From NCBI GenBank assembly GCA_021432655.1, contig MU271298.1:62104-95269 (forward strand): a stretch of DNA of 33,166 nt. The letters run 5' to 3'. The position numbers and the translations under genes are program-made. This stretch comes from Atractiella rhizophila (lineage: Eukaryota). Shown in pieces: positions 10,998-33,166 of this stretch. The notes under the pieces are model-generated. The model did no database searches. It was given only the letters and a program-made list of their open reading frames with translations, and was not told the DNA's origin. Numbering within the stretch: the stretch's first letter is position 1; every line of letters starts with the position of its first letter.

Positions 10998-11468
10998 CGA
11001 CGATCTCGCGTCCCGTCTCAATCCCCGCCTGCTTCACTCACACTGCTCGCCCGTTTCTCGCACTCTTCAAGAAGTTATGTACGATTCCACTCAGTCGGTG
11101 AATAACTTAAAACTCATCAGGTCATTCGACCTTGACTCGTGCTTAACTTGGAGGGACGTGAGAAACAAGCAATGGAGCCATCACAAGAAAGGTGGGAACC
11201 AAGCCGGGGGTTCCAACTCCTGATAAAGAAGCTCCAATCCCGCTGTTTCCGAACCATTGAAAAACCAAAAAATTCAAAACAGATCTGCTCAATCATATCA
11301 ATGACACTCTAACGCTCTAAACTTGGACTGCCATTCGAGACATGTTGGATGAGGGATGTTGCCGGACCACATCGTCAATACAATATCATCCAGAATCGAG
11401 AACCACTACTGTCCAGCATAAAAAGGACGGGTCATAATAGGTGAAAAATTGCCCCTGTCAATACCCGC

Positions 11469-12384: not shown

Positions 12385-12674
12385 TCACGACGAATTATCC
12401 AGGTCAACATGTAATATGGTTGACTATTTATGGGATTAAATGTCATGTAACGACATGCGACCAACCTTAAGAATCGAGTCATTGGTTAGCTTGTGGCATT
12501 TAAAATGTCACCATTACTTGTTGATAGAAGCAAGTTGGGCAGGAATGCCAGCCAACATTTTCATCAGGATCCTATTTTTGTGGGAGGCAGGGTTGAACGT
12601 TGATCCCTAAAGTACCGTTAGTAGTCCACTGTGTCCTTAGCCTCTGGGGGCCACGGTTTTGATCTCCAAGTTTC

Positions 12675-12766
12675 TAGGTCTCTTCACCGTCACCGCATGG
12701 ACGGTCGACGGGACGGACGGCGTCTCAGTACCAAACTTCGACGGTACGGGACGGTGAAGAGCCCTA
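12675..12766. mobile_element. 92-bp hAT-type MITE
   Basis: TIRs TAGGTCTCTTCACCGTC / GACGGTGAAGAGCCCTA (16/17); perfect 8-bp TSD CAAGTTTC at 12667-12674 and 12767-12774; internal ACGG/CCGT repeats. Confidence 0.92.
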
Positions 12767-13910: not shown

Positions 13911-15510
13911 TCAAGCCCTCTTTATCCCGACTACCCCGATCCACCTATCTACCGCATCACAGCTCTCAGTGGTCTCGCCTTTCATGCGCTCTAGTTCATT
14001 GCGGAGTGCTCGTTCGAGTGATTCTAGGCGAGATGGAGAGGTGCCGAGATGCTTTTGGAAAGGAAGCGATAGGGAATGAAAGTGAAGGAGGATGCTCTCC
14101 CTCATTGACGCAGCATTAGTCTCGCTCATTTGGGCTCCTTCGTCCTGTTCGAACCCTGATGAGCTGCTTGTAGAACCTGGAGTAAGTGTCGGTGGTGAAG
14201 AGCAGAGTGCTAAGGGTTGTGCGTATGGCGTTATAACGAAAGTTACAGTGAATGGAAAACGAACGAATGTCAACTATCCGAACTGCTCGTCACGTCAGTC
14301 TTCCTTCTAGTTGATTTTATTGAAACAATGGGAACATACCTGTGACCTCACGAATTCCCTTCAACAGCTCCACCTGATTTTGAAGTTTACGAGCCGTATT
14401 GCCGTGGCCGCTAATGGTGGAATGCAATACCTTCACAAGTTCGTTGAATTCGCTTAAGGACGTGTACAGGGTGGAAGACGGTGAAAAGAGGCCAGCGGGC
14501 TCCATAACGTGCAGAATTCCCCCATCGCGAAGCGAAAAAGCGCATTCTTCGAGCAGTTTTCCATACTCAGATATCTGAAAGATCACTCAAAGTCACGTCA
14601 GATGATGAGGAGTGATGTCGACCCACTCCCGAAGCTAGGTCTCTGCCCGTTATGATCAGTCACGTTCCTCCTAGTGCCGAAGGACAAACGCACCTAATGT
14701 AGATGAAATCAAAGGAATCCTGCTCGGATTTAGATGACATTCAGCATCCCCTCCGAGTTATGATCAGACGGAAACAAATCTCTTTGACTCACTGCTGGAT
14801 AATCCAAACCTAGCGATACGTCGTCGATCAAGAAGTGGCAGTTTGGAGGAACTTCTGTCGGGTAACTAGGTACGAGGTCGAAACTGCACATTCCAACAGA
14901 ACAGAATCAGCAAGTGCTCTGGGTGCGAGTTGTCTCAAAAGTGTAAGGGAATGAGAATGTGGAAGCCTACGCTGTCACTCGGGCGAGTGGGAACTCATCA
15001 GCCAGCTCGATAGCCACACACCCTGTACCACAACCTAGCCATTCGCATTAGCCACTCAACAGTCTAAAAATGGAGCAAATTTAGTACCAACGTCGAGAGC
15101 ACCTTTTGGGCCTTTCAGCGTCGTCGCTCCTATCTCGGGATCAATAACAAGGAGAGCATTAAGCCTGATCTCCAACATCCAATTGCTGCCATCTGTCAGC
15201 CACAGCAGTTGAGAAAGCACATAAATCTAATAAGGAAAGAATGCATGCTTAAACGAGATTTTATTGCCTAAGTCGAGTTTAGTTTACGACTAGGAAGTGG
15301 GAAGCAACAAACCTCGTGCAATATTTTTTGTCTGGCAACTCAGACTGTCACTCGAGCTGGATAGAGCCAGAAGAAAACAAACCGTCTATATTCGCCTTCA
15401 TCACAACTTCAAAGACCCCAAGTCACTTTTGTTAACAGAAGAAAGTGAGCACAAACGGGTAGACATAAGAAGCTCCTCCTTTCGCGTGGTAAGTTCTTCC
15501 AGCCTCATTT
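13911..15510 (-). CDS. LaeA-like class I SAM-dependent methyltransferase (many short exons; 5' end not identified; may be a pseudogene)
   Basis: Spliced reading gives GRTYHAKGGASYVYP|CDEGEYRR (exon 15510-15457), ALDVG|CGTG-CVAIELADEFP (intron 15087-15035), FDLVPSYPTEVPPNCHFLIDDV, DSFDFIYIR, LLEECAFSLRDGGILHVME and C-terminal LRNELE...WIGVVGIKRA. Confidence 0.78.
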
Positions 15511-15539
15511 CTGTAATATTGAGCAGTATTACTCAAAGT

Positions 15540-17795
15540 CGTGCTCGGAATCATTGTCTTGGTTCTCCTCCCTCAAGCCCCACTCGCATCGCATCCGCTC
15601 GTCCCACGGCGTCGTCACGCAAGCGATTGGCATCGGCACTGTCAAAGTGTTAACAAAAATCAAAGGAGTAGAAAGAGAAATTGAGATCACTGACACTCTC
15701 TATGACCCTGAAATCGACTGTGCCCTCCTCTCCACCGACAAGTTAAACACCCACGGCTTCGACATTGTGTTCTCGGCGAACAGGCAAGAGAAGGTGGTGA
15801 AGGGTGATGGTGCGGTGGTCGCTGAAATCGTTGCTGAAGGTGGACTGTGAAGATTGGATGCGTCAGTAATCATGAATGAAAGTACAAGCTCAAAACTCAC
15901 GAGCGCCGCAAAGCCGGCCTCTTCACATGTCTGGCACTGCCATTTAGGGCACATCAGGAGTGGGAGCCCCAAGCTGTTGCAAGAAAAGGGAATGGTCAGA
16001 GGACTAGAGATAGGAGATGAGCATCACCACTCACCGTGCGTGCACCGGATGCCTCCTTGGTCAACAACGCAAACTCCCATTCCCCTCCGGCTCCGCCGAA
16101 CGCACAAAGGAGAAGCTCGAATTGATCCACACCGATGTATGGGTCCTGCGCCCGTCAAATCACTCGGAGGATCTGAATACTGGCTCAGCTTCACGGACGA
16201 CGCAACGAGAAGAAAGTGGATTTACTTACTCAAGTATAAATCCAATGTCTTCTCCATGTTCAAGGAATTCAAAGCGAAAGTTGAACTCGAAACTGGCCTG
16301 AAGATCAAAAGAATGAGATCAGACAACAGTGGCGAATATACAAGGAACGAGTTCAAGACATACCTCAAATCCCACGGCATCAAACACAGGCACACAGCTG
16401 CCTACACACCTCAGCAGAATGGCGTTGCCGAACGCCTCAACCTAACAATCGCCGCCCTCATTCGCTCAACGCTACACACGTCGGACCTCCCCAAGAAGTT
16501 GTGAGGAGAACTCGCCATGGCCGCTATCCAAATCATCAACCGGCGCCCCTACCTCTGTGAGACTCTACTGTAAAAAGCGAGTTCCTTTAGCTCGACTAGA
16601 GCGAGAACTAAGAGGCTCAATCAATAAATGAGAGCTTAAACGAAAAGGAGAGACAGGAACCAGCTTATGCTAGCCACACTGAAGTGTAGGGCCTCTTATC
16701 AAGCTATTTGGTCTCAGAATAAAGACAATGGATCTTACAGGGGCGCTTCTACGGCCCGGGGGACTTACCTCGATTCTTACCGCACTTTCTGCTGTGACTG
16801 CGAAGTAAGGTGATGAGGAATAAGATGAATTTACATGAACAAGTGAGGCCTCTTTTAGAGGCCAATGAATCGGATAAAAGATCAGACAGCATCGCAGGAA
16901 CCCACAATACATGAGTAGATAGAAATATAGAATAATCGGAAAGCATGGAACGAAGAGGAAGCTGAAGGGAATCGAACGAGGCTCACCAGGGAATCGACGG
17001 ATCTTGCCTTCCAGTTTCTGGATAAGGCTAAGATACCATGCAGTTATCTTCCCTTCTTCTCCCGATCGATTGTACGCGCTTGGAGAGGTGTAGAGAGACG
17101 GGGGAGTTGGGAGGTATACAGTGGTCAATGTGACTTCCAAGTTAGGCAGGAGCCGCTTCCAGAATAGGAAGGTATTGCCGCATGTGAGCGGGTTGACCGT
17201 TGTATCTCACAACCTCCGCACTTGAAGGAAAGACTCCGTTCGAAGCCTGGACAGGAAAGATGCCGTCAGTGGATCACTTGCGAGTGTTGGGATGCAAGAC
17301 TCACAGTCTGATCCCTCCTGAGCCAAACCGACAGAAGCTTGATGTGCGCTCGATGGAGGGGAGGCTGGTGGGTTATGATTGGGAGAGCAAAACGTATAGG
17401 ATCTATAATCCCAAGAACGGATCAGTAACCAAGCACCTACATGTTCAATTCGACAAAACGTACCCCACAACACTCCTACAGCCTATGAAGTCCAAACGAG
17501 TGAACCAGCAGATCCCCCTGTTCCCGAAACAGAGTCAGCTCCAGTCGTAACAGGAAAACAACCGAATGAGGGGGAGAAACTTACCGAAGTGCCATCGAAA
17601 GCGAAACCAGAACCGCCAGCGCCTCGAGAATGCCTACAGCGCACACGGCGGATCCCCACCTGCAGAAGCTCAGAAAGAAAGCAGACCTAAGTACTTTGGT
17701 GACTCACCATTGTAAGATGCAGTAGCCCACATCACAGTAGCCTCCCACAACCTCACTCCGACTTATGAAGAGGTTATCACCGGTCCGAACGCCAC
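15540..17795 (+). mobile_element. Degenerate internal fragment of a Ty1/Copia LTR retrotransposon (protease C-part, GAG-pre-integrase, integrase); no LTRs or RT
   Basis: AIGIGTV, WHCHLGH, CTGCLLGQQRKLPF, LELIHTDV, FTDDATR, RSDNSGEY, TPQQNGVAERLN, LRVLGC and PTYEEVITGP. Stops at 15848-15850 and 16502-16504 plus several frameshifts. Confidence 0.9.
16556..17211. mobile_element. Solo LTR (656 bp) inserted in the Copia integrase
   Basis: Ends TGTGAGA...TCTCACA; 5-bp TSD ACCTC at 16551-16555 and 17212-17216; removal rejoins INRRP|TSALEGKTPFEAW (with a 1-nt slip). Confidence 0.9.
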
Positions 17796-19354
17796 CAGCG
17801 TGGGAGCGAGGCTGCAACGTGCGAGACCAACCAATGAGAATGTGGTCTCGCACTCGCAGGGCAATTCGCTTTTTTCAGAGAAAGGTGCTGAATAATGAGA
17901 AGGCGTAATTGGAAGTAAAAAGAAAACTTCAGCATACACCACGATATTGATACTAGGGGACGTGAATGCTCCCCGAAATTTAAAGTAGGAGGCGTAATTG
18001 CTCCGGTCACCTCACTTTCATCCGTTCTGTTCTTTCATGAAAATAACAGTTTGAACTCGTATGCGTTTGATCCATCTCACCCATCAAAATGACCGAGGAA
18101 GACCTCTTTGATCGTTTGATCCAAATTATTCTTTGAAATGGCCGGTCGCATGCGTGGTAACTACCAGATATGTCGGCACCTGAACTTTAACACGTTGTCC
18201 CTGTTACTTAATGACACCTCATTTTCTGCATCCAAACATAAAAATCTGCCTCCGATCTCTTCAATTTGGATCAAAATCCTAAATCCAACCCTTTCCTCAG
18301 TCATTTCCTGGATCGGTTCCATCAAAGCCCACCTCAGGTGCAACTTGCATCAACATCCTAAATCCACGTTCCGTCACAATTCGAATCAAATCTATTACAA
18401 ACCTTTACATCCATCAAATCGTGTTACACAGCAACTGTCAGAGTTTGGCACCGTTTTAAGCTGCATTCGTGCCACTGTCATTTGTGGCTCTAGTTTTCTC
18501 TCCCCTTTGCCGTTTCTCTCTTTTTGCCGAGTTCCTTAAGGTATAAAAAGTCCATTATAACTTCATTGTAATTCATTCCTTTCGACGCTTGGAATCAACA
18601 GCAACCACCCATCCCTTGGATCCGCCGAGACACAATCAAAATCCTAATCACTTCCTGTTGGAGATGTGTAAAATGTTAGTAATACTTTGTTCATGAACAT
18701 TCTGGAACTTTCTATTTGCCACAAGCTCTCATGTATATAAACACCTGTTCTTATGTTTCTGCTGCTCATGTGTTTGCAAGAGCTCAGCCAAACGTAATAC
18801 ATTTGTTTGAGGTTAACAAAGTAGCAGACAAAAACAACAATCTTTGCCAAGGTGCCGGGAGGATTCCTCTATCGCGACATGACCAACTTCACTTTCCCGC
18901 TTGAGACCTGATAAGCGGCTGCGACAGCGGGAGCTACAGAGGGACGACAACTACGGCAACGACGTTAGGCAGGCAGATGGAGGGCTGATTAGAAAGGGGC
19001 GGAGGGCTGGTGGAGGAAGAAGTGTAAGCGTCATGCAGCTACAGGGACTTACTCGAGTGCATACGACAGATGTTTTAGCAAGAAACACTCGACTGACGAC
19101 GGGTGCACAAGCGCAGCATTTGTAGGGGGCTGATTTCAGTCACTGAAGTAAAAAATGAGATTGCACCAACCCAACACCAGTCATAATCATATTCTATTCC
19201 CACAAAAGCACTCGGAGACACTGAACAAGGGCGATAAGCACACACTGTCGACTGCCTCGTTATGTGCATGAGAATGAGCATGATAATGGATAGGGGATTC
19301 GTTGAGGGAACAAAGCGAGATGCAACGCTTGAGGGCGGAATGAACGTTCCTCCC

Positions 19355-20521
19355 CAGGATGCACAACGGGACGTGGCGGGTCCAGAACCCGTACTTCGTT
19401 CCCGTCTTTTTTGGCGTGCGTAGAGCTCAGAAACACGTCTCAAACCGCACGCATTTTTGACGGGACGGGAAGACGTGCGGCAGACCTGAAGGAGTGTTCC
19501 CGTCTTCGTACGCCAACACGTCTCCTAACGTGGCTCCAGATTTCTATAGCTGTGCAATTTATGTAGGATCTTTTTAGTCAACCAGGCCAGGTCGGCTGGC
19601 TCATCAAGAACAAGAAGTCAGAGGTTCCTTTGTGCACTTGGTACCTGTCCAATGTAAGACCAGAATCTTCTTCTGACTAGTCTCGCCTCAGTCGCTCCAG
19701 TGCTCCATTCAAGTGTTGATCCCAAAGTGTCGATAGAAGGCAGCAAACCAAACCATCTTCCTCCGACAACTCTTGTTCCATCGCAGCTTGACAGTACAAA
19801 ACGGTAGCAACACTCTCGTATTCAGCAAAACTTACGCAGAAGGCTAATCAGCGTATGAAGGAGTTTCAAGAAGATGAGGACTTGCAACCAAATATCTGGT
19901 TTAGTCTCCCTGAGGATCCTCTGGAAATCTATCACACAGGTCGAAAACGGATTTGAAGGAGCGGTCTCAGATGGCAAGGGATATTCTGTCCATTCCTGGT
20001 TTGGGTTTCCTTCATTCGTCTTCTTATTCAATTCTGAGGCTGATTATTCATTTTTAGGCTGTTCGGTAGCTGTGGAATGCATCTTCAGCGGAGCACGAGA
20101 TACGATAGGGATCTGCCGCACACGCCTCAAGCCCAACACTATTCAGTCTCTCGTGGTTCTTAAGGCTCAGCTATGATTGGAGAGAGATCGAAAGGCAAAG
20201 AAACTAAAGGCAGGCCTGGCTGCCATTGCGAAAGGAACTTCAAGTTGAGCAGGTTGAAAAGTTCTTTATACATACATTCGCATCTTGACTTCTCAGCTTC
20301 ACTCAATGTGCTTTATTTTACATTATCTAGCCTAGTAATGTCAACATTGCATGTTATTACAAGACGTGAGGCTTTTGCCGGCTACAAACCCGTTACCGCA
20401 ACCTTTGACGTGCGACTCAGCGAGTGGAACACGTCTGCCCGTACCCGCCCGCATTCACTTGACGTGAAGAAGCTCACGTCGCCCCTACACACGCCACGCC
20501 ACGCCACGTTGTGCATCCCTA
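19355..20521 (+). mobile_element. Internally deleted hAT element
   Basis: Ends CAGGATGCACAACG.. and reverse complement TAGGGATGCACAACG..; subterminal ACGGGACG / CCACG repeats; contains a hAT dimerisation-domain remnant. No TSD visible. Confidence 0.65.
19965..20176 (+). pseudogene. hAT transposase C-terminal dimerisation domain remnant
   Basis: SQMARDILSIPG|intron ~19999-20057|CSVAVECIFSGARDTIGICRTRLKPNTIQSLVVLK. Confidence 0.85.
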
Positions 20522-20539
20522 GAAGGTTGTAGCCTTTGA

Positions 20540-21118
20540 ATCCCAGTCCCAGTCCCTTCGGTGCTTCCGGGCGGTACGAAAACTTAAACCGTCCCGTATC
20601 GTATCGTCCCACACAGGTTGCTGCCAGAGGACGGCCGCAAACGGTTATAGCCTGCATACTTCTGACGTAATCCGGGTTCCGGGCACCCCGCACAGCATTT
20701 TCACCAGAGATTGTGATGAGACATTATACGACTCATCAACCCATGGAGCAGGAAGTTGGATCATCGAGTGCTGGAACCTTCTCCTTTGCCACTTTGATTG
20801 TCGTTCCTCCTTTCTACTGTCGACCCCCGAGGGGACCTGTCCCGCTGCTCCAGACAACTGCAGAAGCATTTGAGGACTGATGCAAACTGATGTTTTAACA
20901 AGTGCGATGAAATTCATCACAAGGGAACAAGGAATCAATCCCCAAGTAGGGTCGAAGAAACAATAGTGTCGAGTTGGGTCATAACGGACGGGACGCGGAG
21001 CAAGCAAAGCCGTATTGTATCGGCCTTTCTCAAATGTGTTCAAAATCACAGACGGCCGGGTACGAAAGCACCGTGTCGGACCGTACGGCACAAAATTTCC
21101 GGACCGATAGCCATAGTG
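20540..21118. mobile_element. Degenerate hAT-like non-autonomous relic
   Basis: Two blocks rich in CCGTCCCGTATCGTATCG / ACGGACGGGACG; the right end reverse complement (..ATGGCTATCGG) resembles the end at 21705 (GATGGCTATCG). Confidence 0.4.
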
Positions 21119-21213: not shown

Positions 21214-21704
21214 GCGAGTCATCACTCCGCCTTCACTTGAAGTTTCTCTCACCACACGGAAAACAAGAACATCCCTTAAACTATGGGATTGACGTGTGTA
21301 GAGCAAATAATATGGTAATTCTGACAGAATCTAAAGTACCTGATCTCACCCTTTGACCGCAGTGAGCTTGAAATGCGACATCTCCAGGACCACCTCCCTT
21401 CCTCTCTATCAGCAAAGTATTTATCAGCGTATTGCGAATATCATAAGTTTATAAGTTTAACTGCTCAAGGTGAGCTAAGTTGCAAATACGTGCTCAAAAT
21501 CTGATCGACCTAGCCGGCCTGACCAGGCCGTGGCATGTTGCAGCAACACCACTCAGTCCAGAGATAGGCCCTGGCGGGAAACCCTACTGGTTTTGCGGCA
21601 TGGTAGCGAAAGATGATCCGGCGGCGGGAACCAGCGCGACGACGTCGGAAGAGGGGGGATTGTGGCGCGGGGAAAGGGGCATAGGGGCATAGAATACAAA
21701 TTGT

Positions 21705-23023
21705 GAGGGATGGCTATCGTACCGTATTATCGTCTCAGCGCCACTTCCGGACGGTACGTGACCCTGTTTCGGCTCGTATCCTGTCGTATCGTACCGTAAC
21801 AAATCTCCATTGTCAGATACGTACGAGTACGGCGGAAAACGGGAGAATCCGACGGATTACGGGTTATATGGCATATAGCAATTTCATCACGTCTTAGGTG
21901 TCACGTGTCACACTTTCGTCGCTTCTGACCGGCTCTGCAGCGTCATCCTCCAATGTCATCAGCTCCATTTGCAAACTCTGTAAGCTGAGATTTCCAAAGG
22001 AAGCGCGCAATGTGATCCTGAGCATGATAAGGTCGTGTATCTCAGTATCTAGGCAATGACAGCAAATACCTACGGTATCACGAGCACCAGGGAAGATGTG
22101 CTTGACTCCCACAGCTCAACATATAGCACTGAAAAACCTGAAAACAAGTGAGCACACTTTGGGGAGACACGTTCTGGAATAGCCAGACTATCTCGAGCCA
22201 GAAAAGACAAGTTGTGCAAGTTGTGCTTTGACTCTTACTTCCAAGTGGATCAGCTCCCAAGCCAGGGTTGACAAAATCGTACGCCTCCTCCTTTCGCCAC
22301 TTGCACACTTGCGCGTTTCCACTTTCGTCGAGCGTGTTCTGGAACTGTGGCAACTTCTCTTTTGCCACAGGGATCTTAGCTATAAAAGCCTTTCACCTGC
22401 AAGTGCGAGACTCACACTTATTTGTTATCTCGCACTTCGCAGGTAATGTAGTTCCCTTACATACTAAATGCAACACACTTATTTGTTATCTCGCACTTCG
22501 CAGTGCTCGCACATTTGTCAAGGGTTACATGCTTGAAGAGATGGTTAATTTCGTTCATTACTCTATTTTCATCCACTCCCGCCTTTGGACCATGACCGAT
22601 AGAAGCGAGATAATCGAGAATGGAGAGAGTCGAAGACGTTTATATGTTTGAGGAGAGGAAGGATGTGTTATCGGTGCGAGCGCTCGTCTTGTTTCATAAG
22701 CTGCAGCCTCAATGTGTCAGTTTTGAAGAATCTAAGAACGCTGCAAAGGAAGCACGGACCATGGATTGAGAGTATGCAACTGTGCCAAACCATCGCCTCC
22801 AATGTCCTCCGTTGTAACCCATTGCTCCAGCTGCAAATTGCCTTCCTCCACCGTAACCCGTAATACGACGGATTTTCTGGATGAAAACGGACGGGACGTG
22901 GAGGATGGCGTATCGTATCGTATCGTCCCGAAGAACAGTCAAGCAGGACGGACCGGTACGGTACACGTACCGGACACGTACGTCTGGGACGGTGCGATCC
23001 GATTGCCATCGATGCCATCCCTA
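21705..23023 (-). mobile_element. Internally deleted hAT element (~1.3 kb)
   Basis: Ends GAGGGATGGC and reverse complement TAGGGATGGC (Ac-like); inner inverted block AATCCG(A/T)CG(G/T)ATTACGGGTTA; ~165-bp ACGG/CGTAT-rich subterminal regions; minus-strand remnant LARDSLAIP ... VKHIFPGARDTVGI. Confidence 0.7.
22413..22503 (+). repeat. 30-bp perfect direct repeat
   Basis: CACACTTATTTGTTATCTCGCACTTCGCAG at 22413-22442 and 22474-22503. Confidence 0.9.
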
Positions 23024-23033
23024 ATATTATACA

Positions 23034-25926
23034 ATGGCTTCCAAGGAGGAGACTCACTTTTGGCAATTTCTCCCTACGCTCGTGGGAGCGATGACGAGTC
23101 CAGACGCGCACAAGAGGAGCGTAACAATAGTGAAGAGGAGGAAAACTTTGCGAATGAGAGGGACGTCGATGAAGTGGCTCAGGGTGAAGACAACCACGAC
23201 ATGGATGTGGACACAGCGGAACCGTTGGGGGAAGCGCCTAGCTCGGGAGATTTACTGTTGTTGTCGGAAGAGGAGTGTGAAGGTGGTTCTGACGAAGAGG
23301 AGGAAGAACGGATGGGCTCAGCTTGAAGAAGCAAGAAAAGTGTCACCCATCCGGACGAATACTGAAGCGCCGCAGGTCTCAGAAATCAGCTCGTTCGGAG
23401 AGGAAACGCCAGAAGCTGGACAACTCGGAAAGGGACCAGATTGCCAAGTCGAGGGGGTCGAAAGACTTTGCACAGGCGAAGGGGATATGTCAGAGGAACG
23501 GGAAGGCCGCGAAGATAAGGGACACCCCAAGAACCTGGAATTCGCTGAGAGACGATTCCTGGACATGTTTGCCGGCATTTCCACAGAGCATACGTTGTCA
23601 TGACTACACAGTTTTGTGTCCAGACTGAGGGATGCTGAATGGATGGAGTTGCCTGTATATGATACAGGTGATTCCGCTTTCGACCACATATGCGTCCTCG
23701 CGCACAGGATCTCCGACGTAACGAACGCGGAATCGTGGGTCGCTTTGACCAAGATGGTACAGACCATGAAATTTGCTATTGAGGTATATGAGTGCGTTTT
23801 CTCACCATTTGTTCAGAATTGATTACAGAGTAAATACACAGGTGGGAGATGGCCCGGCCGCGAGACCCGACGGCCAAGCGTCAGAGGTTCAATCGATCCA
23901 AGGCCCACCAACATCTGCTTAAGTTAATGGATAGTCTGGACTCTCGATGGAAAGAAAAGAGGAATACCGAATTGAAACTAATTCAAGACTTTCAGATGTT
24001 TGAATCAACTTTTGTTCTAGGCCTAAGACTATATCAAGCCTGTAGACATTGTAAATTTACCGTTTGGTTTTGCAGGACCGCAACTGATCGCACGGAGATG
24101 TAGTTTCACCTCATATCCTGCTCATTTTCAGTATGGAACCATCAAGCATCAAATCAATAGGGGATTTTGGAGAAAATTCATGGATGCAGGTGCAGCATGC
24201 CATTGCTCACCCCAACCTATACAACAGTGGCTTCGGTACCTACAAGGATGGCTGTACTTTGGCTCGTATGTGGATCTTGTCACTCGGACGGTCTGAATAC
24301 AAGGTCTTCAACAGAGCCTCACATAGCCATTGTCCAAGAAGAGATTATTCCGGTGCTGCATCAGCTACAGGATAATTTGACCATAACTTTTATGGATCGC
24401 GTCAACGGATTGGATACCATCAAGGATCAGAACTGGTGGCGTACGATTCGGATAGGAAGCCTGAGCCTCGGGACGTTGGACGACTTCGACAGCACCTAGA
24501 CGCCGCAGGCCCGTCCCGCAGTTGCAGGTATCCTTCGATGGCCTAACTTCGCTTGGAGGAAACAGGCCAGCCAAGGAAAAGCAGCCTCAACGCTCAGTGG
24601 TTCCCGAAACCGAGGTTGGAAGGTTCGGAACTCTTTACCATTCGCACCTCAGGCCTGAATCACAGGGATAGACATCGCAGTATTCAGCTTCGCTGTGTTA
24701 GATTGCGATTCATTGAGTTCGACGTTAACCAACATACGGTCGAACACATGCCCGGAGGACGAAGAGCGAAGTTGGAGAAAACTCAGGCATGTCGACTGGA
24801 TGCTCAACGCCGCAGCGTAGAACTAGACAAATGGGCTACAGTAGACAACATATTATCCAAGGATGATCAAGGAACATATCTAATAAGCGCCGATGCGCCG
24901 TATTTGCACTTTCGGGCGTCCTTATTTGAAGAGTAAGGGGATTTTACATTTCTCGTCTGCAGACAAAAAGAGGTCGTGGTTGCTACTGAGATTTGCTGGC
25001 GTTTAGGGCGGAAGCAATATTTACGGACCGAAGCAATGTCCCAGTTCTTCATCGATTTTGCAACTCCGTGCTCAGGCATGTGGGAAATCAGAAGATCAGT
25101 GAGTTACAATCATGACAGAGCTGTGCCAAGAGATGCTGATGGTAGGTGACAGGTCAACATACCAGAAGGATACTATTAGAAGTATAACCCTCACCACCAG
25201 AAGGGTCCAGCGAAATCGATCATCCTTTTTCTGCTTGTCACTTCCAGCTGTATCAACGCACGGGTATCAACCCAGATGAAATGGCTGAGGTCAGATACGA
25301 TCGCATGCTTATCAAGGGGGAACATCAGGTATAAGTCACCATGACATGGGAAGACTACTTAACGATTGTAATCTCAGATGGGCGTGTATGAGTCGCGCGA
25401 ATTGCAAGAATTGAAGGCTAGGTTTAGGGCTATGGTCCAGCACCTAGAACCTTGCTGGAGTGCTGTTGTCAGGAAGGTGAGCACATCACGTATTTGGTGA
25501 CAAGACTTGATGGTATCATATCCATCAGCTGGAAGAACACTTCCCGGAACAAACTGAATCCATGAGGGATCTATGGGATAATGTACCAGGGACCGTAGAA
25601 GGCTTAGGCCTAAGCGGCATATTCACCGGGGTGGTTCTCAACTACGGCGTCTCTACTTGGCTTCATGTGGACAAAAGGATCATAAGTTGTGCGTAGTCAT
25701 CCCCTTTCATGGTGGTGAACAGCTGGGAGGGTGGGAAGGTGGGGATCTTCTGCTGCCAGAGCAGCGTTTGAGATTAGAGCTGCTGGCTGGGCACCCGGTG
25801 ACGTTTGCCTCGACGAAGATGCTCCACTGTAATATGGAGGTCAAGGGGTGGAGAGGATCAATTGTCCTGCAGTGTGATTCATACTTGGAAAGGGAATTGG
25901 GAGTTGATCCCCAGGTGCATGACTGA
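23034..25926 (+). pseudogene. Large multi-exon gene ending in a TET/JBP-like 2OG-Fe(II) dioxygenase domain; frameshifted, start uncertain
   Basis: Introns 25329-25377 and 25477-25528 give FSACHFQLYQRTG..|MGVYESREL..|LEEHFPE..GIFTGVVLNYGVSTWLHVDK-(1-nt slip)-DHKLCVVIPF..GWEGGDLLL..G..V.F.S...HCN....WRGSIV. HxD at 25664-25672, distal His 25825-25827, Arg 25852-25854. Upstream acidic and basic low-complexity exons carry further lesions. Confidence 0.75.
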
Positions 25927-26133
25927 GGGTTATACTTTACTAGTAATGAACATTGAGTCCTTATATTCAACATCATCACCATAATCCAAAGTTACTGAAC
26001 CTTTGTTGTACATGAGCAGAAACTACTTGAGACAGCTAGGAAGTGGAGACCAAGGTAGTGGGGATTGTGTGGGTACCTGACGGGGGGGTTTAAGAATGGA
26101 TTGGCAGGAGATGAGTACGACTACTACTACAAG

Positions 26134-27720
26134 TTATCTGTGTAAAAAATCAGACCAAACAAGAAGTGTCTGATAGGCTATGGAGGAGAAAGCACTATTC
26201 CTAAGACCAATGATAGCATCTAAGAGAGAGGAGTTGGGAATAGAGGGAAGAGGCACTTTGGAAAAGAAAGAGAGATCCGTGAAGGGAGAACTAGCAGAAG
26301 AAAAGAAACCTAAGGATGAAATCAAACAGCTAACATGACCGCGAGAAAAAGGGAGACCACAAGAGCAAGGGCGGTTGAACCCGAAACGTCCCACCCTCCA
26401 CTTGATGACGAGCCTCCGCAAGGCATCATCAGGAATAAGGAGAATCCTGTCCACGAGAGAAGCCGTCCGCCGGAGAGGTGAGATGACGGAACCTAGAGTG
26501 CCAACAAGCTCAGATGAGCTCAGGAGGCGAAGCCATTCGCGACGAAGGAATGCCTGAAGTGTGAGAACGTAACCGTTGACCTCCTCGTTGGCCTGAGCAT
26601 TGAGAAAGCGAGCAAACAGTTCGCAAGACTGGATTTGTGGCACGATATCTGAGATAGTGGGAGCGGTTGGCCAGGGGGACACAACGAGGGGGAGGGCTGG
26701 GTTGAAGCGGGAAAGGGAGCGGAGGTGAGCTGTGAGACCAGCACCAAGCTGGCGGAAGCGCTCGCGAGGGGGAAGAAGGCCTGTGGCGGAGGATGCGAGT
26801 TTCCAGCGGTCAGTGGATACCCCGGCTATCCAGGAGACTGCGAGTTTGAAGTGCTGGGAGGCCGCCAGCATTCCGGGAGAGGAGGAGCGTCGACGCTCGT
26901 CGCAAACAATCCAGTAGTGAAAGAGTCCGTCCCCCATAGTCTGAAATGGGACGAACGAAGGTGCGGTAAATGACCAAGGGGACTAGTTCGTTCCAACTAT
27001 TCCCAACCACCTGGAGGCTCCCCAGGAAGCGGTCTTGCTTGTCCGACTTCTCCAAAAGCCAGGCCTCGAAGTCAATCCCGTTAGGACCCCGAGACATGCC
27101 GAGATACTTTGCGCTGCTGACCTGCTGAATTGGAGTGCCGTTGATACAAAGAGTGACGGGGAAGGGGGCAACAGCTTTACATTTGGGATATTGAGCTTCA
27201 TCCCGTTCTGATGAGACCACTTGCTAACTGTATCGAGCTGATGCTAGCCTTCATCGACAGTTTTGGGGATGCAGACAATGTCGTCGGCGAAGGAGGGAGC
27301 AGAGACAAGGGAAGAAGTATTTGGCGGGAGAGGAGAGGGCGACTGGGAGCTTGAGGGTGATGGCTGGGAGGCGAGGAGAGGAGAGGCAAGTGAGCGAGGG
27401 AGGAGCGTTAAGGAGGCAGACAAGTGGGTCAATGAAGAGATCAAAGAGCATGGGAATGATCGGACCACCCTGTGGGTAGCCGCGATGAATGGCAATGGGA
27501 AGTTGGCGCTCGCCGTTGACTACGATTGTTGCCATAGCATTATGAGTGCAAAGTTGCCAGACGAGCTCGCGTATAGCTGGTGGAGCACCTCGAGACTTGA
27601 AGTTGGCGTCGGCAATGTCGTGTCGAACTGACAGAAAGGCACGTTCGAAGTCCAGGAAGATCGCAATAATCCTCTCCCCCCCCTTCTTTATCCTCTGTTG
27701 TTGGCTCCTTGGGAGGATCC
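26134..27720 (-). mobile_element. 5'-truncated non-LTR retrotransposon (LINE): reverse transcriptase plus C-terminal Cys/His motif, frameshifted
   Basis: IFLDFERAF, GYPQGG..PMLFDLFIDPL, FADD, KYLG, YRTFVRP..DYG and WRVGRFGFNRPCSCG...RGHVSC across four overlapping ORFs; (GTA)n-like tract just after the stop. Confidence 0.88.
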
Positions 27721-29732
27721 GGTATCGGTATCGACAAGGAAGCTGATTCATTATGGCACAGCTTTGAGTTTGCACGAGCATTGCACGAGGTGACGTGGTT
27801 TTCACGAATTCAACCCAAGATCGATGGTTGATGGACTGCAGAACGACCACCTCTTCCTTTGATCTATTGCCATATTTCTGTTGTTACCATCAGCATATGC
27901 GGCTGTAACGATAAGGGACAAGGGATAAGTTCGAAATCAAGCTGTTCAGGATTCCTAATCATTAATCTTGCTTGTTGCCACAATTATTACATGACTGTAG
28001 GACAGAGGGAGAGGGTAGAGATCAGCCACTTTACGATGGATGGCGTGGTTTGTGCTTTATGGTTGGATTGACCGCTCTGATGCTGATCTATGCAGAAACC
28101 GATCGTAAATGAAATGGATGAGACGATGACTATTCAGATAGTCGACATCGTGAAAAAGGTGTCCGATTCTCGACCACAGACCAATGATTTCGATGTAAGT
28201 TTACTCGATTTCCAGCTTGTGGAGCTAATCCCTGCCTCAAGCTCTCTAGAGAAGTACGAATCAACATCGAAAACACTTATCCGGCCGACTCGTGGACTGT
28301 CATAATAGGCAGAGAATATGCCGTTTCTCATGGAGGCGCGTCTTCTCAGTAAAGTTATCCGATTGCTTATCTGCGTGCTCCCTGTAGCACAAGGACGAAC
28401 TCGTTTGCTTTGCGAGTACAAAGGAAAGATTTTCGTGAGATGCTTCATCCCATCTCCTCCACAATCTGACGAGTCGGCACTTGCATTTCAGGCAGTGCAT
28501 AGACAACCGAAAACATGATGATCAACTTGGATTGTTTCAGTAACTCAACTTCTTGGTCAATGTTTCTGATCAAGAAGGATCTCTTGATCCTTGAAATTTA
28601 GTCGACAATTAGAAAGAAGTCGTAAGCCTTGCACCAAATCAGATTGAGGGAGAATGAGGGAACCCAACAGAAGAATGGGATATCTCCCACTTCTTGCAGT
28701 GCTCCTTCCTGCCACAGCGTCTTTCAACACCGCCCAGACCGTTCCTTAGTCTCGAATCTAATCTTCGATGATGCTTGAAATAAAGAAATGCAGCGACTAA
28801 AGTAACAAATTCAGCGCTTGGGAGCGCGAAGAAGGCGAAAATGTTTCTTCTGTCGAAGGCTGGCAATAACATGGAGCTCATATCGCTTGCGATGAAAATG
28901 CAATGAAAACGAAGTTGAACTAAGCTTGGTAGTCTTGAGAAATGAGCCCTGTGTCTCTACTTTGGTGATTGCGAAGTGAGAACGAATCGTCGCTCTCAGG
29001 CTACATTCAACCGTGCTACTTGTTCCAGCGTTGTTTACTTCATCCCTCCACAAGCTAAAGCCCTTGCGCGTCCTCTCCTTCACCCTTCACCAGGGCGATA
29101 CTACTACTCCCTCCCTCATGCATACGTACCAACATGTGAACACTCCGTACCTAGGTTCGTACTCGCGCTAATTCAAGTGCTCCAGCAATCTGACGATTTC
29201 ACTTGGCCGAGAGCCTGCAGAACAGAAGAATTTAGACTGTCTTTGGACATTTGCCCCTTGTCCCTTGTCCCTGTAGGATTCAGAAATTTTCTAGTCGTGC
29301 CAGATATAGGGTTGCTTCTATCTGCAAGCAAACTTCAAGTCATTTAGCAACACGCAACAATTCAAACCTAGTGAAACGTACCCATCGTTGACTCTTCAGC
29401 GACACCTTACTCCCCTCTTATTTTCTTCCAATCAATCAAATATCCACTCATGATCAGATCATCCCACACTGCGACGGCATTGGTTGCTGTGAAATTTATC
29501 AATAAAACTAATCACGGGTATGTAAAAAGCAAAGACGCAAAGCTCCTACACAGTAGCAAAGCATACTTAGTTTAATTCACCACAGCGCTCGCACTGGCTG
29601 ACACTAAAACATTCACCCAGAAGAACAAGGGCTTGAAAACTTAGAATCACTCTTAAAAACCGACTAGATTTTAAAACGACCTGCCAACAGAACGGTAGTC
29701 AATCGAAGAATAAGAAGCTTTGGATTACAAAA

Positions 29733-30123
29733 TGTCAGGAACTAAAGAAAGGCAGGCAGATGAATAGAGGTGGGTTGCCGTCGGATCAGGGCGAGGCTCG
29801 AGGAGGCTAGGAGATCCATTGCTCGCCGTCAGGACCGACCTTCCTTAAAGCTTCAGAAAGGATCACAGCTTAACGAGAAGGATACAAGCCGACGGAGTTG
29901 ATGTCAGGCTTATGGAAAGGGTCAATGGCTGGGTGAATGGGGATTGGGTTCTGGGGAGGATGAGTTTCCGGAGCTCCGAGGTAATATGTGTTAGTTGTAG
30001 TGTGTTGTTTTGGTCATCTGCCTCGTATGACTCATATGAGTCATCACTATGTAGTTTAGTTCTGCCTAGGAGTGTTGGTGCTCATTATTGACCACCAACT
30101 ACTCCTAGCCTTAGATCCTTACA
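29733..30123 (+). mobile_element. Probable 5' LTR (~390 bp)
   Basis: TGTCAGGA ... TCCTTACA imperfect terminal inverted repeat (7/8), directly followed by a PBS; long hairpin at ~30064-30110. Left boundary inferred. Confidence 0.6.
30027..30044. promoter_or_regulatory. Two abutting Gcn4/AP-1 consensus sites forming an 18-bp palindrome in the LTR
   Basis: ATGACTCATATGAGTCAT = ATGACTCAT + ATGAGTCAT. Confidence 0.5.
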
Positions 30124-30135: not shown

Positions 30136-30723
30136 CTGGTGGCTAGGATTACACCCATCACCTTCCTCCTCCTCCAGACCACATTTTCACCCCTCCTGCA
30201 CTCAAATTTCGCTCAATTTCGATGATCAAGACAGATCTGTGATCCTCAGACCTTCCTTTACCACCTTAGAAGGTGTCTGCTTACTCAGGAATCAAAAAAT
30301 ATCGAAATCTATCACCTTACCACCCATCTCCTGCTTCAAAACGCACTTTGCCACCCTGGACTCAAACTTTGACGAATTTGGACGTTATAGGGCTTATTTT
30401 GATCGTGAAACACTGCGCTACAACTTTACTAGGAACCACTTTGGTCACAATAAGCGAAAATTTCGAGATAGCCACTCCATCACCTCCTTCACACCCCCAA
30501 AACGCATTTTTCGACTTTTTGAAGTCAGATCTGGTCTGATCTGGACAATTTTATCGCCATTGAATTCACAATAGGCTATTCTACTACCCTACAACAGATC
30601 ACCTTGATCAGAAGAGTCAAAATTTCGAAATTTGCCACCATCACATCATCATCACATCAGCCCCTATTACCCTTTCTGCATCACATCAGGGGATCTTAGG
30701 ACTCAACCACAGACTCTAGGAGG

Positions 30724-33166
30724 ATGTTTGGGATGGAAATGGCTCTTAATGGGTTGGAATTTGCTGGACTGAACAGTCTTGCTGCAGCAAATGATGTCAC
30801 TATGCCTCAAGCAAGCCTTGAGTGGATAGCAGACACTGGTGCAACTTCCCACATGTCTCCCCATCGCCATTGGTTCAGAACCTATCAGAAGAAGGTCATC
30901 CCTATCAGGGTAGCAAGTGGAGAAGTGATTTGGAGTGCTGGGATTGGGAGCTTGATCTTTGAAGCCAAGTTGGGGGAGAAGAAGACCACCACCATCACCA
31001 TCTCAGATGTCCTACATGTCCCCAAGCTCTGGAACAACCTCCTGTCAGTCTTCAGGCTCACCATCTACAAGGGAATGAGGGTCTCCATCAAGCACAACAA
31101 GGTTCTCTTCTTCCAGGGTCAAAAACTCTGCCTTACTGCTACTGTGGACTACAAGAATGGAAGCATGGCTGGGATACTTGATGGGAACACCCTTCCTGCT
31201 CCAGAATTTGCTGGAAATGCTTCTACACTGCCGATGGATGCCTCTCTGTGGCACAGAAGACTTGGACATCTTAATTATGAGGACATCAAGCGTCTGAAGA
31301 GGAAGGAACTTGTGAATGGGATGATTTTGGACCTGGAGGATGATCCAGACCCTATTTGCGAGCCATGCCTAGCTGGGAAGCAGCATAGGGTCTTCAACAA
31401 GTCAGCAGAGACCAAGGAGAAGGAAGTATTGGGTAGGATCAGCTCAGACCTGCATGGACCTCTTCCAGTCACTTCCAGAGAAGGATATCGATATTGGGTC
31501 ACCTTTATTGACGAAGCATCAAATCATTGCACAATTGCCTTCCTCAAGAAGAAATCAGAGGCCCCAGAACTCTTCAAGACCTTCAAGAATTGGGTAGAGA
31601 ATGTCACTGGAAAGAAGATCAAGAAGTTTAGAGAGGACAAAGAAGGCGCTTATTCCTCCAAAGAATTCGATCAATACCTCAAGGCCTGTGGTATCCAGCG
31701 CGAACAGACAATCAGGAACTCTCCTCACCAGAACGGCAGGGCAGAACGAGCCAATAGGACGATTCAGGAGACTATGGTTGCCATGTTTGAAGAATCTGGG
31801 CTTCCACTCTTTCTCTGGCCATCTATTGCTTCAGCGGTCGTCCACATTCGCAACAGATCTCCCTCAGCTTCGATCAACCATGCTATTCCCCACACAAAAC
31901 TCACTGGACTTACTCCAACCATCTCAAGATTCAGAATCATTGGATGCACTGCCTACGTTCAAGTTCAGAAGGATGAAAGGCCACACAGCTTAGGATCTCA
32001 TACTCGAAAATGCGCATTTATAGGCTATTCCCTTGCAGCGAAAGGGTAGGAGTTCTGGGATCCTGTTGGAAAGAAGGTCTACACTCGAGATGTTGCCAGA
32101 TTTGATGAGAGAGAGATGCTCTGCAAGGTCAGAAAGGAGAAGATTATGTTGGAAGAGCCACAAGGACCACTTGATGAGTGGAAGGAGCGTCAGGATCAGG
32201 TGGGAGATAGACAGAATAGTGCTCCAGCCGCTCCTCCAGCCAAGATTTCACTAGACGACGATGAAGAAGAAGAAGATGCATGGATTCAACAGCCGGGAGC
32301 ACCTCCTACACCTCGGGAACAACCCAGACCGCTTGGAATACAGTCTCCAAATCGATTTCAGCCCCTTCAGGTAGAAGAAGAAGAAGAAGAAGAAAGAGAG
32401 CCGTCTCCGGACCCACTACAGCTTGTGCCTGAACGCCCTAGGACACCACCACCTCGTCAGTACACCATGCAGAGAGATCCTTGGACAGGAGTTCACATGC
32501 CTAGATTCTCAGAGTCTCCAGACCCACTCCAGATCCACCCAACAACACCAGATCGACCTCCTCCAGCAGCTTCAACACCTCCCCCTGTCACCAGGCCTTC
32601 AAGAATTTATTCTACGAGTAGAGGACACCCTGTCGACAGATTTAGGACCCCAGAAGCGCCTCAAAGCAACGACGAAGGGTCAACAGACGAGCTTGGGATG
32701 TTGGTAAAGGAATGTGACATCCTCACTGAGCCAGAGGCAATGGAATATGGCTATATGCTTGTCACAGAGCATGCCATGAGTGCAGCAACAGGAGTAGAGG
32801 TCCCTCAGTCATATTCAAGAGCGATGGCAAGCCCTAATGCGAAGGAATGGCATGAAGCGACAGTGAAGGAGATTCAATCTCACTTGGACAACAAGAGTTG
32901 GATTCTGGTCAAACCGCCTAAAGGAGCAAAAATCGTTGGTTCTCGATGGGTGTTTGCGGTTAAGAAGAAGTCGGATGGTTCTATTGAGCGCTTCAAGGCC
33001 AGATTCGTCATCAAGGGGTTCTCTCAACGCCCTGGATTCGACTACTTTGATACTTTTGCATCTACGGTCAAATGGACGACACTTAGGACCATTCTTTCGC
33101 TCGCTTGTGTCTTGGACATGGAGTTGGAGTCAGTGGATATCTCTACGGCATTCCTTAAACGGCGAT
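30724..33166 (+). pseudogene. Ty1/Copia pol (protease, GAG-pre-integrase, integrase, start of RT), runs off the window
   Basis: WIADTGATSHM, LWHRRLGH, CEPCLAGKQ, SDLHGP, SPHQNGRAERAN. In-frame TAG at 32047-32049 (likely TGG); the same frame continues to SRWVFAVKKKSDGSIERFKARFVIKGFSQRPG and VDISTAFL. Extra A near 33157. Confidence 0.93.

What the first reader, a model, noticed from the sequence alone, without database searches (positions are those of the whole stretch)
23034..25926. TET/JBP-like dioxygenase gene embedded among transposons, catalytic residues all present
Seen: after splicing and adding one A to the run at 25673-25676, the last exon has HxD..H..R(xS) in a double-stranded beta-helix pattern (HVDKKD, GGDL, LHCN, WRGS), fused to a long N-terminal region with acidic and basic tracts. 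Known: basidiomycete TET/JBP genes are expanded, often travel with KDZ or Plavaka transposons, and oxidise methylated DNA bases. Inference: this is transposon cargo acting against methylation silencing, with its 5' end abutting a hAT terminus and its 3' flank hit by a LINE. No partner transposase is visible next to it, so the carrier is unknown.
Basis: partly seen in the sequence, partly recalled or inferred. Interest (0 to 1): 0.72.

Follow-up and report, generated by a model that had tools for sequence, protein, structure and literature searches.

The report
Broken TET/JBP dioxygenase gene copy
This is a decayed copy of a multi-copy fungal gene for a TET/JBP-type DNA-base dioxygenase, sitting in a transposon-rich stretch of an Atractiella-like basidiomycete genome; the kind of gene is already known and this copy is most likely dead.

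Summary
HVD is at 25664-25672, GGDL at 25738-25749, the His of LHCN at 25825-25827 and the Arg/Ser of WRGS at 25852-25860. A one-base frame break at the A-run 25673-25676 separates HVD from the rest.

TET/JBP homology is real but indirect:
- The window pieces hit no Pfam family.
- The last exon finds 23 relatives among 1.84 billion proteins.
- 14 of these 23 match Pfam Tet_JBP.
- A profile of them hits human TET2 best in the PDB.
- A model of a 52%-identical relative is closest to CcTet, NgTet1 and CMD1.

This copy is not one repair away from intact. It has TGA at 23601 where all other laid copies read C. It changes frame against a paralogue near 24490, and a 1.33-kb hAT-like element sits just upstream of the ATG.

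The gene is multi-copy. Two Atractiella rhizophila proteins from other contigs are 90-97% identical, and contig depths are 361-821 against 142 for the unique flank.

I found no carrier transposase or flanking terminal repeats, so "transposon cargo" stays unshown. TET/JBP expansion with transposons in fungi is already published (PMC12730594), so this is an ordinary new member.

The parts
23034..25926 (+). Decayed TET/JBP-family dioxygenase gene copy (ATG 23034, stop TGA 25924-25926), read in all three frames
   Evidence: Three-frame translation. Paralogue proteins P0029 (246/273 identical over 7 pieces in 3 frames) and P0002 (116/120) map onto 24392-25794. Distant relatives match only 25526-25932.
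25532..25672 (+). First part of the last exon, ending in the Fe-binding H-x-D (H 25664-66, D 25670-72)
   Evidence: 47/47 residues identical to P0002 residues 35-81. Matches P0017 754-801 at E 1.9e-5.
25673..25677 (+). Frame break: one base fewer than in the paralogues, at a run of four A
   Evidence: P0002 reads ..HVDKQDHKLC.. across it. The end of P0029's gene model (..GQKGS, stop) also implies one more base there than the window has (inference). Sequence.
25678..25926 (+). Second part of the last exon: conserved Asp, GGDL, second Fe-binding His (LHCN), 2OG-binding Arg (WRGS), stop
   Evidence: phmmer gave 23 hits. Alignment A1 shows the nearly invariant D, GG, H, N, R and S columns, all kept in the window.
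23601..23603 (+). In-frame TGA inside an otherwise open, protein-like frame; other copies read CGA
   Evidence: At 23601 the window has T. All contigs laid there read C: X1 3 contigs, depth 1786.1 of 1786.1; X3 4 contigs, 86.2 of 86.2.
21702..23028 (-). hAT-like non-autonomous element inserted just upstream of the ATG; absent from other copies
   Evidence: Contigs join 21684 to 23029 or 23037 (X1 3 contigs, X3 1 contig). Termini are GAGGGATGGC.. and ..GCCATCCCTA. Subterminal inverted repeat 21843-21866 / 22854-22877. Flanking ATACAAAT / ATACAATG resemble an 8-bp duplication. The peptide remnant 21894-22115(-) is 46% identical over 37 aa to the hAT-like remnant of 19859-20173.
19356..20521 (+). 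Second hAT-derived deletion element, also absent from other copies
   Evidence: Inverted repeat 19357-19378 / 20497-20518, 91% complementary. Joint 19355->20522 in X1 and X3. ORF 19859-20173 gives Dimer_Tnp_hAT at E 0.19, below cut-off. 29 of 30 Atlas hits are hAT dimerisation clusters, score 0.91-0.93.
21410..21701 (+). Upstream flank that other copies carry directly in front of the ATG (the shared unit reaches at least here)
   Evidence: X3 contig 9 covers 21410-21684 and joins to 23029. An X1 joint has 84 letters on its shorter side.
26085..27883 (-). LINE-type retroelement fragment downstream of the gene
   Evidence: RVT_1 E 6.5e-10 on 27251-27883(-). High-depth repeat contigs start at 26085-26107. 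The unique single-copy contig starts at 27639.

Best explanation
Window 23034-25926 is a pseudogenised copy of a recently amplified, multi-copy gene of an Atractiella-like basidiomycete (Pucciniomycotina). Its last exon encodes the catalytic double-stranded beta-helix of a TET/JBP-family 2-oxoglutarate/Fe(II) dioxygenase. When intact, such a protein would bind Fe(II) with H-x-D plus a distal His and bind 2-oxoglutarate with the R-x-S arginine. It would oxidise a methylated base in DNA, most likely 5-methylcytosine. That activity is inferred from solved and assayed relatives and is not shown here. This copy cannot make the enzyme. One base is missing three codons after the H-x-D, there is a CGA-to-TGA change at 23601, and there is at least one further frame change. 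A hAT-like element has also been inserted between the upstream flank and the ATG. Shown: family, lesions, copy multiplicity and nested insertions. Inferred: substrate, and that the family once spread with or as part of mobile DNA.
For: Family:
- 23 hits at E<=1e-3 from the last exon.
- 14 of these 23 match Pfam PF12851 Tet_JBP at E<=0.01. One of them, P0017, is above the gathering cut-off at 41.2 against 34.9 bits, and UniRef names it a 2OGFeDO JBP1/TET oxygenase domain protein.
- The profile A1 against the PDB hits TET2 at E 4.3e-4, NgTet at 0.27-0.35 and CMD1 at 1.5.
- An AlphaFold model of relative P0003 (pLDDT 73.8, core above 85) has CcTet, NgTet1 and CMD1 at all ranks listed from 1 to 21, with E from 2.7e-6 to 4.4e-4.
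- The conserved D, GG, H, N, R and S columns are kept in the window.

Lesions:
- The frame break is shown by collinear two-frame matches and by P0002.
- TGA against C in all 7 contigs laid at 23601.
- A frame change against P0029 near 24490.
- A hAT-like insertion that other copies lack.

Multi-copy:
- P0002 and P0029 are Atractiella rhizophila proteins from contigs of 67,032 and 193,560 bases. They are 96.7% and 90.1% identical to the window pieces.
- X1 contigs on the gene with 0-3 differences have depths of 361-821. The unique 2314-base contig has 142.3.
- 1260 X1 contigs lie on the 11.5 kb, and 811 of them are below 99% alike.
- The two annotated paralogues are themselves truncated models of 123 and 288 aa. 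No protein of 201 aa or more with this C-terminus was found.
Against: The window's own pieces give no Pfam match (0 of 11 pieces hit Tet_JBP even at E<=1), so family membership is transitive.

9 of the 23 hits carry no Tet_JBP match. Two of those, P0001 and P0020, are tandem-repeat proteins and not relatives.

P0017 alone finds nothing in the PDB by sequence.

Contig depths are not copy numbers, as the tool itself cautions.

The missing base lies in a homopolymer and could be an assembly error. The rows shown (12 of 108 indel rows) do not cover it.

With liberal GT..AG introns an uninterrupted path through the locus can be drawn. Those paths delete conserved coding parts, including the H-x-D.

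No RNA data were available.
Confidence: 0.8

Rival explanations
1. The copy is, or was, cargo of a DNA transposon. On this view the locus is a fragment of a TET-carrying element whose transposase half and termini lie outside the shared stretch or were destroyed by the nested insertions.
For: The family is multi-copy and sits in a transposon graveyard. Published work shows TET/JBP genes inside 11 lineages of fungal DNA transposons, including Pucciniomycotina (PMC12730594: abstract and sections 3.1, 3.4 and 4.1 read). The window holds a complete-looking element with Transposase_21/DUF4218 and 39-nt terminal inverted repeats at 847-9246. A contig of run X3 shows the same type of terminus next to a TET copy at 25151.
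Against: No TET-like sequence lies inside 847-9246. No transposase domain was found in 18.5-26 kb apart from hAT remnants that other copies lack. There is no inverted repeat between the unit's two ends beyond chance: local score 17 against a shuffle mean of 18.3. The stretch shared with other copies seems to be little more than the gene. It starts somewhere between 21119 and 21410, and in X3 it ends at 25951.
Confidence: 0.3
2. It is a host gene family expanded by segmental duplication or ectopic recombination, not by transposition. This copy is then one of several decaying duplicates.
For: The shared unit holds no transposase and no termini. Upstream flank and gene show similar summed depths, roughly 900-3000 against 142. 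Kojima (PMC12730594, section 4.1, passage seen) argues that TET/JBP genes are not themselves transposons.
Against: Contig depths of 361-821 against 142 for the unique flank point to several near-identical copies, and many more contigs are diverged. That is unusual for a plain host gene. All annotated paralogues found are truncated.
Confidence: 0.2
3. The gene is intact and functional, and the apparent breaks are assembly errors or introns.
For: The frame break is in a homopolymer. All catalytic residues are kept. A stop-free path exists with liberal introns.
Against: The TGA at 23601 sits in continuous protein-like sequence, and every other copy laid there reads C. A frame change against P0029 has no room for an intron. 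The hAT-like insertion ends 5 bases from the ATG. The stop-free paths remove conserved coding sequence.
Confidence: 0.07
4. It is a 2OG-Fe(II) oxygenase of another branch (prolyl hydroxylase, AlkB-like or PiuC-like), not a DNA-base TET/JBP enzyme.
For: PiuC, ALKBH5/8 and PHD2 appear among weaker matches: profile E about 1, and Foldseek rank 22 and below with TM 0.22-0.34.
Against: All best sequence-profile and structure matches are TET-family.
Confidence: 0.03

Closest known systems
Fungal transposon-associated TET/JBP dioxygenases (Iyer et al. 2014, known to me only through citations; Kojima 2025, PMC12730594: PU, AG and PE types)
   Same: It is a basidiomycete, multi-copy TET/JBP catalytic domain at the C-terminus of a long, otherwise unassigned protein, and it lies in transposon-rich DNA. 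H-x-D (not H-x-E), the distal H and R-x-S are kept.
   Different: The host is an Atractiella-like fungus. 'Atractiella' and 'Atractiellomycetes' occur neither in the main text nor in the one held supplement of PMC12730594. No linked transposase or termini were found. I could not assign it to the PU, AG or PE type, because Figure 7 is not held. This copy is broken.
CcTet of Coprinopsis cinerea (PDB 7vpn, 7w5p, 8jkk)
   Same: It is the best structural match of the modelled relative P0003 (E 2.7e-6, TM 0.52-0.55 on the query). It is a fungal 5mC/6mA dioxygenase according to PMC12730594 section 3.4.
   Different: Identity is only 17-18%, and no sequence-level PDB hit was found. Three residues after the H-x-D aspartate this family has a nearly invariant Asp. 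CcTet has Gly331 there (position as quoted; equivalence inferred by counting, not by a structural alignment). Substrate preference may therefore differ.
Human TET2 and Naegleria NgTet1
   Same: TET2 is the best profile-to-sequence match in the PDB (E 4.3e-4), aligning the region up to and including H-x-D. NgTet1 aligns the C-terminal half and ranks 3-11 by structure.
   Different: There is no Cys-rich domain and no CXXC. The N-terminal 2 kb of the locus resembles nothing but Atractiella paralogues.
hAT7 TET-carrying transposons of Puccinia (PMC12730594 section 3.1.2)
   Same: A hAT-type element lies directly beside a TET/JBP gene in a member of the Pucciniomycotina.
   Different: Here the hAT-like element is a 1.33-kb deletion derivative with its own termini, in the opposite orientation, and other copies lack it. 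It is an insertion next to the gene, not its carrier.

Membership tests
TET/JBP dioxygenase (Pfam PF12851 Tet_JBP) | Direct match of the locus's own translation to the family profile | tested here: not met
   0 of 11 translated pieces of 23037-25923 hit Tet_JBP at E<=1. The catalytic domain is split over two frames, so each piece holds only part of the domain.
TET/JBP dioxygenase (Pfam PF12851 Tet_JBP) | Homology to proteins that match the family profile | tested here: met
   The last exon finds 23 proteins. 14 of these 23 hit Tet_JBP at E<=0.01, one above the gathering score. An Atlas lead points the same way: 13 of 30 hits are in clusters with PF12851 (11% of members in the one such cluster listed).
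TET/JBP dioxygenase (Pfam PF12851 Tet_JBP) | Fe(II) triad H-x-D ... H and the 2OG-binding Arg in R-x-S, in conserved alignment columns | tested here: met
   H 25664-66, D 25670-72, H 25825-27, R 25852-54 and S 25858-60 fall in the conserved columns of A1. The triad is split by the frame break.
TET/JBP dioxygenase (Pfam PF12851 Tet_JBP) | Double-stranded beta-helix fold closest to solved TET-family enzymes | tested here: met
   Tested on relative P0003 (52% identical to the last exon), not on the window protein itself. All ranks listed from 1 to 21 are CcTet, NgTet1 or CMD1.
TET/JBP dioxygenase (Pfam PF12851 Tet_JBP) | Oxidation of 5mC (or T, or 6mA) in DNA | not testable with these tools
   Needs an enzyme assay of an intact family member.
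TET-carrying DNA transposon (TET+ element in the sense of PMC12730594) | TET/JBP gene and a transposase gene between one pair of termini with target-site duplications | tested here: not met
   There is no transposase domain in the shared unit. No inverted repeat between its ends exceeds chance. The only complete transposase-bearing element (847-9246) holds no TET sequence. The whole genome was not available, so other copies could not be examined.
hAT superfamily (the 21702-23028 insertion) | Short terminal inverted repeats, 8-bp target-site duplication, hAT dimerisation domain | tested here: inconclusive
   Termini share 9 of 10 bases, (G/T)AGGGATGGC. The flanking octamers ATACAAAT / ATACAATG match at 6 of 8 but are offset by 2 and 5 bases from the repeats. 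Pfam Dimer_Tnp_hAT reaches only E 0.19 on the sister element. Atlas: 29 of 30 hits are hAT. The two remnants are homologous to each other (E 2e-7).

The most novel reading that the evidence does not exclude
Atractiellomycetes carry their own recently amplified TET/JBP subfamily, marked by an 8-residue insert before the GG-D-L strand and H-C-N in place of H-F-N. Its roughly 3.3-kb repeat unit is little more than the gene and a short upstream flank. If so, the gene spread without a linked transposase, for instance as a non-autonomous element mobilised in trans or by a still undescribed carrier. That would add a fourth fungal lineage and possibly a new mode of spread to the published picture.
Probability: 0.2. 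Interest if true: 0.45.

Novelty: new member of a known kind. Interest (0 to 1): 0.22.

Why it matters
The locus extends the known link between expanded TET/JBP genes and mobile DNA to a class of Pucciniomycotina. That class is not mentioned in the 2025 survey I read (main text and the one held supplement). It also gives a dated snapshot of how such copies die, through nested hAT insertion, a CpG-to-TpG nonsense change and a homopolymer frameshift. It does not change what is known about the enzymes. If the copies prove to spread without a transposase of their own, that would bear on how transposons acquire and exchange anti-silencing genes.

Tried and rejected
- Whole-genome search: none is held for this window, so paralogue neighbourhoods could not be examined.
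- The search for homologous proteins with the last exon. 'Longer' gave no hit among 406 candidates. 'Near' gave only P0002.
- Metagenome scan. The single-protein scan gave 2 loci whose 37-residue matches lie antisense to a 762-aa ORF, so they are spurious.
- Spliced-path search with GT..AG introns. Liberal settings give stop-free paths that delete conserved exons. A strict donor gives 4 lesions. Without a full-length reference this is uninformative.
- RNA evidence: no RNA holder listed. Runs X5 and X9 are only guessed to be RNA. X5 gave 11 short contigs and no joints on the gene.
- RIP or strong CpG loss: CpG o/e is 0.81 and TpA/ApT is 0.61 in the gene, like the window as a whole. Differences to other copies run about 2:1 transitions to transversions, with no one-directional C-to-T excess.
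- N-terminal homology to distant relatives: nothing below E 0.01 outside the last exon. The short look-alikes to P0017 (EHTL, W-x-E-x-P) that I saw by eye are not significant.
- P0017 against the PDB by sequence: 0 hits.
- Earlier findings of this scan: nothing.
- Iyer et al. 2014 (PMC3918813) is not held, and a phrase search did not find it.
- Candidate terminal repeats 18749-18771 / 26010-26032 (74%) and 20301-20315 / 25944-25958 were rejected as chance. They are among 27 such pairs in 8.8 kb, and the second lies inside the nested hAT.
Full report
**What is in the sequence**

On the + strand an ATG at 23034 opens a locus that ends with TGA at 25924-25926. L-H-V-D-K has H at 25664-66 and D at 25670-72. 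GGDL is at 25738-49. LHCN has its H at 25825-27. WRGS has R at 25852-54 and S at 25858-60.

The first motif is read in the frame of 25511-25696 and the other three in the frame of 25582-25926. The switch lies at the run of four A at 25673-25676. Distant relatives align collinearly across it. P0017 residues 754-801 match the first frame (E 1.9e-5) and residues 800-863 the second (E 5e-14). The closest protein, P0002, reads ..LHVDKQDHKLC.. without interruption.

The window therefore lacks one base there. P0002 suggests the ancestral codon was for Q rather than K. P0002 and P0029 also confirm the splice 25479|25532.

**Which family**

None of 11 translated pieces of the locus matches any relevant Pfam family, even at E<=1. 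Membership therefore had to be tested through relatives.

- A phmmer search of the 114-residue frame 25582-25923 against 1.84 billion representatives gave 23 proteins at E<=1e-3.
- Two of them, P0001 and P0020, are tandem-repeat proteins whose scores add up many weak stretches. They are not relatives.
- 14 of the 23 match Pfam PF12851 Tet_JBP at E<=0.01. One, P0017 of Punctularia strigosozonata, is above the gathering score and is named by UniRef as a 2OGFeDO JBP1/TET oxygenase domain protein.
- Nine carry no such match. Five of those (P0004, P0014, P0018, P0022, P0023) are fragments of 103-169 residues that align well with the others.
- In the alignment of 22 sequences the nearly invariant N, D, GG, E, G, F-x-S, H-x-N, G-x-R-x-S columns are all kept by the window piece.
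- A profile of this alignment hits human TET2 best in the PDB (E 4.3e-4, covering the region up to H-x-D). Naegleria Tet follows (0.27-0.35), with CMD1 at 1.5. PiuC-type hydroxylases appear at about 1.
- An AlphaFold model of P0003 (52% identical to the last exon; mean pLDDT 73.8, core blocks 84-96) finds CcTet, NgTet1 and CMD1 at every rank listed from 1 to 21 (E 2.7e-6 to 4.4e-4). The first other oxygenase is at rank 22.

**State of this copy**

It is not one base from intact.

1. In the frame that is open from the ATG, a TGA at 23601-23603 interrupts continuous protein-like sequence. At 23601 all three contigs of run X1 and all four of X3 read C, which gives CGA. This is a CpG-to-TpG change.
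2. Near 24487-24501 the window changes frame relative to paralogue P0029 (..LGTLDDF / ..PVPQLQVSFDG..), with no room for an intron.
3. Both overlap a third open frame, and the purine-rich composition keeps all three open. Which frame is ancestral cannot be told without an intact reference.
4. A path search shows that liberal GT..AG introns can always thread a stop-free path, but only by deleting conserved exons. With a stricter donor four lesions remain. This test is weak either way.

The paralogues found in protein databases are themselves truncated models. P0002 has 123 aa. P0029 has 288 aa and ends in a shifted frame just before the H-x-D. No protein of 201 aa or more carrying this C-terminus was found.

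**Copy number and host**

P0002 and P0029 are annotated in Atractiella rhizophila on contigs of 67,032 and 193,560 bases. They are 116/120 (96.7%) and 246/273 (90.1%) identical to the window pieces, so they are other loci of the same or a very close genome.

Run X1 holds 70% of the sampled words of the gene. A 2314-base contig covers the unique flank 27639-29952 without a difference at depth 142.3. Contigs matching the gene with 0-3 differences have depths of 361, 686 and 821. In all, 1260 contigs lie on the 11.5 kb, and 811 of them are below 99% alike.

Depths of contigs are not copy numbers. Together with the two named paralogues, they still show that the gene is not single-copy. No whole genome was available.

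**Surroundings**

The 5' end does abut a transposon terminus. The sequence ..GCCATCCCTA ends at 23023, and its inverted partner GAGGGATGGC.. starts at 21705. A subterminal inverted repeat lies at 21843-21866 / 22854-22877.

Contigs of X1 (3) and X3 (1) join 21684 directly to 23029 or 23037. The 1.33-kb element is therefore an insertion private to this copy or to few copies. It landed at ATACAATG, which includes the start codon, and the octamer ATACAAAT stands on its other side.

Its peptide remnant on the minus strand is 46% identical over 37 residues (E 2e-7) to that of a second nested element, 19356-20521. That element has 22-nt inverted repeats and is also skipped by other copies.

The second element's ORF gives only a sub-threshold Dimer_Tnp_hAT match (E 0.19). 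However, 29 of 30 Atlas hits are hAT dimerisation clusters. 'hAT-like' is thus reasonable but not proven.

Downstream, high-copy contigs begin at 26085-26107, and an RVT_1 reverse transcriptase lies on the minus strand at 27251-27883. This LINE-type fragment starts about 160-180 bases after the stop codon and does not truncate the coding sequence.

**Is it transposon cargo?**

The stretch shared with other copies reaches at least 21410 upstream (X3 contig 9). In X3 it ends at 25951, 25 bases after the stop. Between 21119 and 21410 the boundary is unknown. Further left lie more hAT-type fragments.

- Inside this unit of about 3.3 kb there is no transposase domain.
- Its ends share no inverted repeat beyond chance: local score 17 against a shuffle mean of 18.3 and a maximum of 26.
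- The only complete transposase-bearing element in the window is 847-9246. It has 39-nt terminal inverted repeats, CTTCA(CG) on both flanks, and Transposase_21 plus DUF4218 at 2823-5185 on the minus strand. It contains no TET sequence.

'Cargo' therefore remains an inference from other fungi. Kojima 2025 (PMC12730594; abstract, sections 3.1, 3.2.2, 3.4 and passages of 4.1-4.2 read) reconstructs TET-carrying elements of 11 transposon lineages in Pucciniomycetes, Agaricomycetes and Pezizomycetes. It argues that the TET genes are passed passively between them and are not transposons themselves.

'Atractiella' and 'Atractiellomycetes' occur neither in its main text nor in its one held supplement. 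None of the 15 library papers naming Atractiella rhizophila is, by its listed title (12 listed), about TET/JBP genes. Iyer et al. 2014 could not be read and is cited only through Kojima's text.

**How it would work**

By analogy with CcTet, NgTet1 and TET2, an intact family member would bind Fe(II) through H-x-D and the distal His and bind 2-oxoglutarate through the R-x-S arginine. It would hydroxylate the methyl group of 5mC in DNA.

Three residues after the H-x-D aspartate this family has a nearly invariant Asp. CcTet has Gly331 there, a residue tied to 6mA recognition according to the passage read. The equivalence rests on counting positions, not on a structural alignment. The substrate range may differ and needs an assay.

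Whether such enzymes protect mobile DNA from methylation silencing is a published hypothesis that this locus cannot test. The gene shows no RIP signature and only mild CpG depletion (o/e 0.81), like the rest of the window.

**Verdict**

The copy is a pseudogene of a recently amplified family. The hAT and LINE neighbours are later insertions beside it, and the carrier is unresolved. The phenomenon is already described for other basidiomycetes, so this is a new member of a known kind and of modest interest.

Noticed in passing
window 847-9246: Complete-looking 8.4-kb DNA transposon. It has 39-nt terminal inverted repeats (CCCTGTCAAAAATG..), with CTTCA(CG) on both flanks. A minus-strand ORF carries Transposase_21 (E 1.6e-10) and DUF4218. 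There are unassigned + strand ORFs at 6027-8451, 161-nt subterminal tandem repeats at 1279-1913 and an exact 96-nt tandem duplication at 5121-5312. It is EnSpm/Plavaka-like by domain, but its termini fit neither Plavaka type described in PMC12730594.
   Followed up: partly
window 25151 (run X3): A 453-base contig of organism B (depth 330.5) matches the TET gene at 24903-25151 and then runs into CCCTGTCAAAAATG... That is the same kind of terminus as the 847-9246 element. Such an element therefore sits inside, or beside, a TET copy in a related genome, at a depth far above that of other TET contigs of that run (9.8-95.8).
   Followed up: no
window 18500-18883: Very high-copy short repeat. Summed contig depth in X1 is 43,570 against 142 for unique sequence. 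Several loose ends and joints lie at 18601-18864.
   Followed up: no
window 15449-17550 and 30700-33165: Two Copia-type retroelement fragments on the + strand (Pol_BBD, gag_pre-integrs, rve, SH3_retrovirus, RVT_2). The second shows marked CpG depletion (o/e 0.41) compared with 0.77 for the window.
   Followed up: no
window 23218-23309: Some copies in X1 skip 90 bases (in frame) within the acidic tract. This is a length polymorphism of the purine-rich N-terminal region among paralogues.
   Followed up: no
window 10845-10992: Four tandem copies of a 35-38-nt unit ending in CGCGCGAGAG.AGAGT, in an unassigned stretch (9247-15448) with no Pfam match on any ORF of 85 aa or more.
   Followed up: no
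window 20522-21118: A further hAT-type terminal fragment. Its subterminal motifs (ACGGACGGGACG.., CGTATCGTATCGTCCC) resemble those of 21702-23028, and it ends in ..CGATAGCCAT at 21114. The region left of the TET unit is thus a stack of nested hAT pieces.
   Followed up: partly
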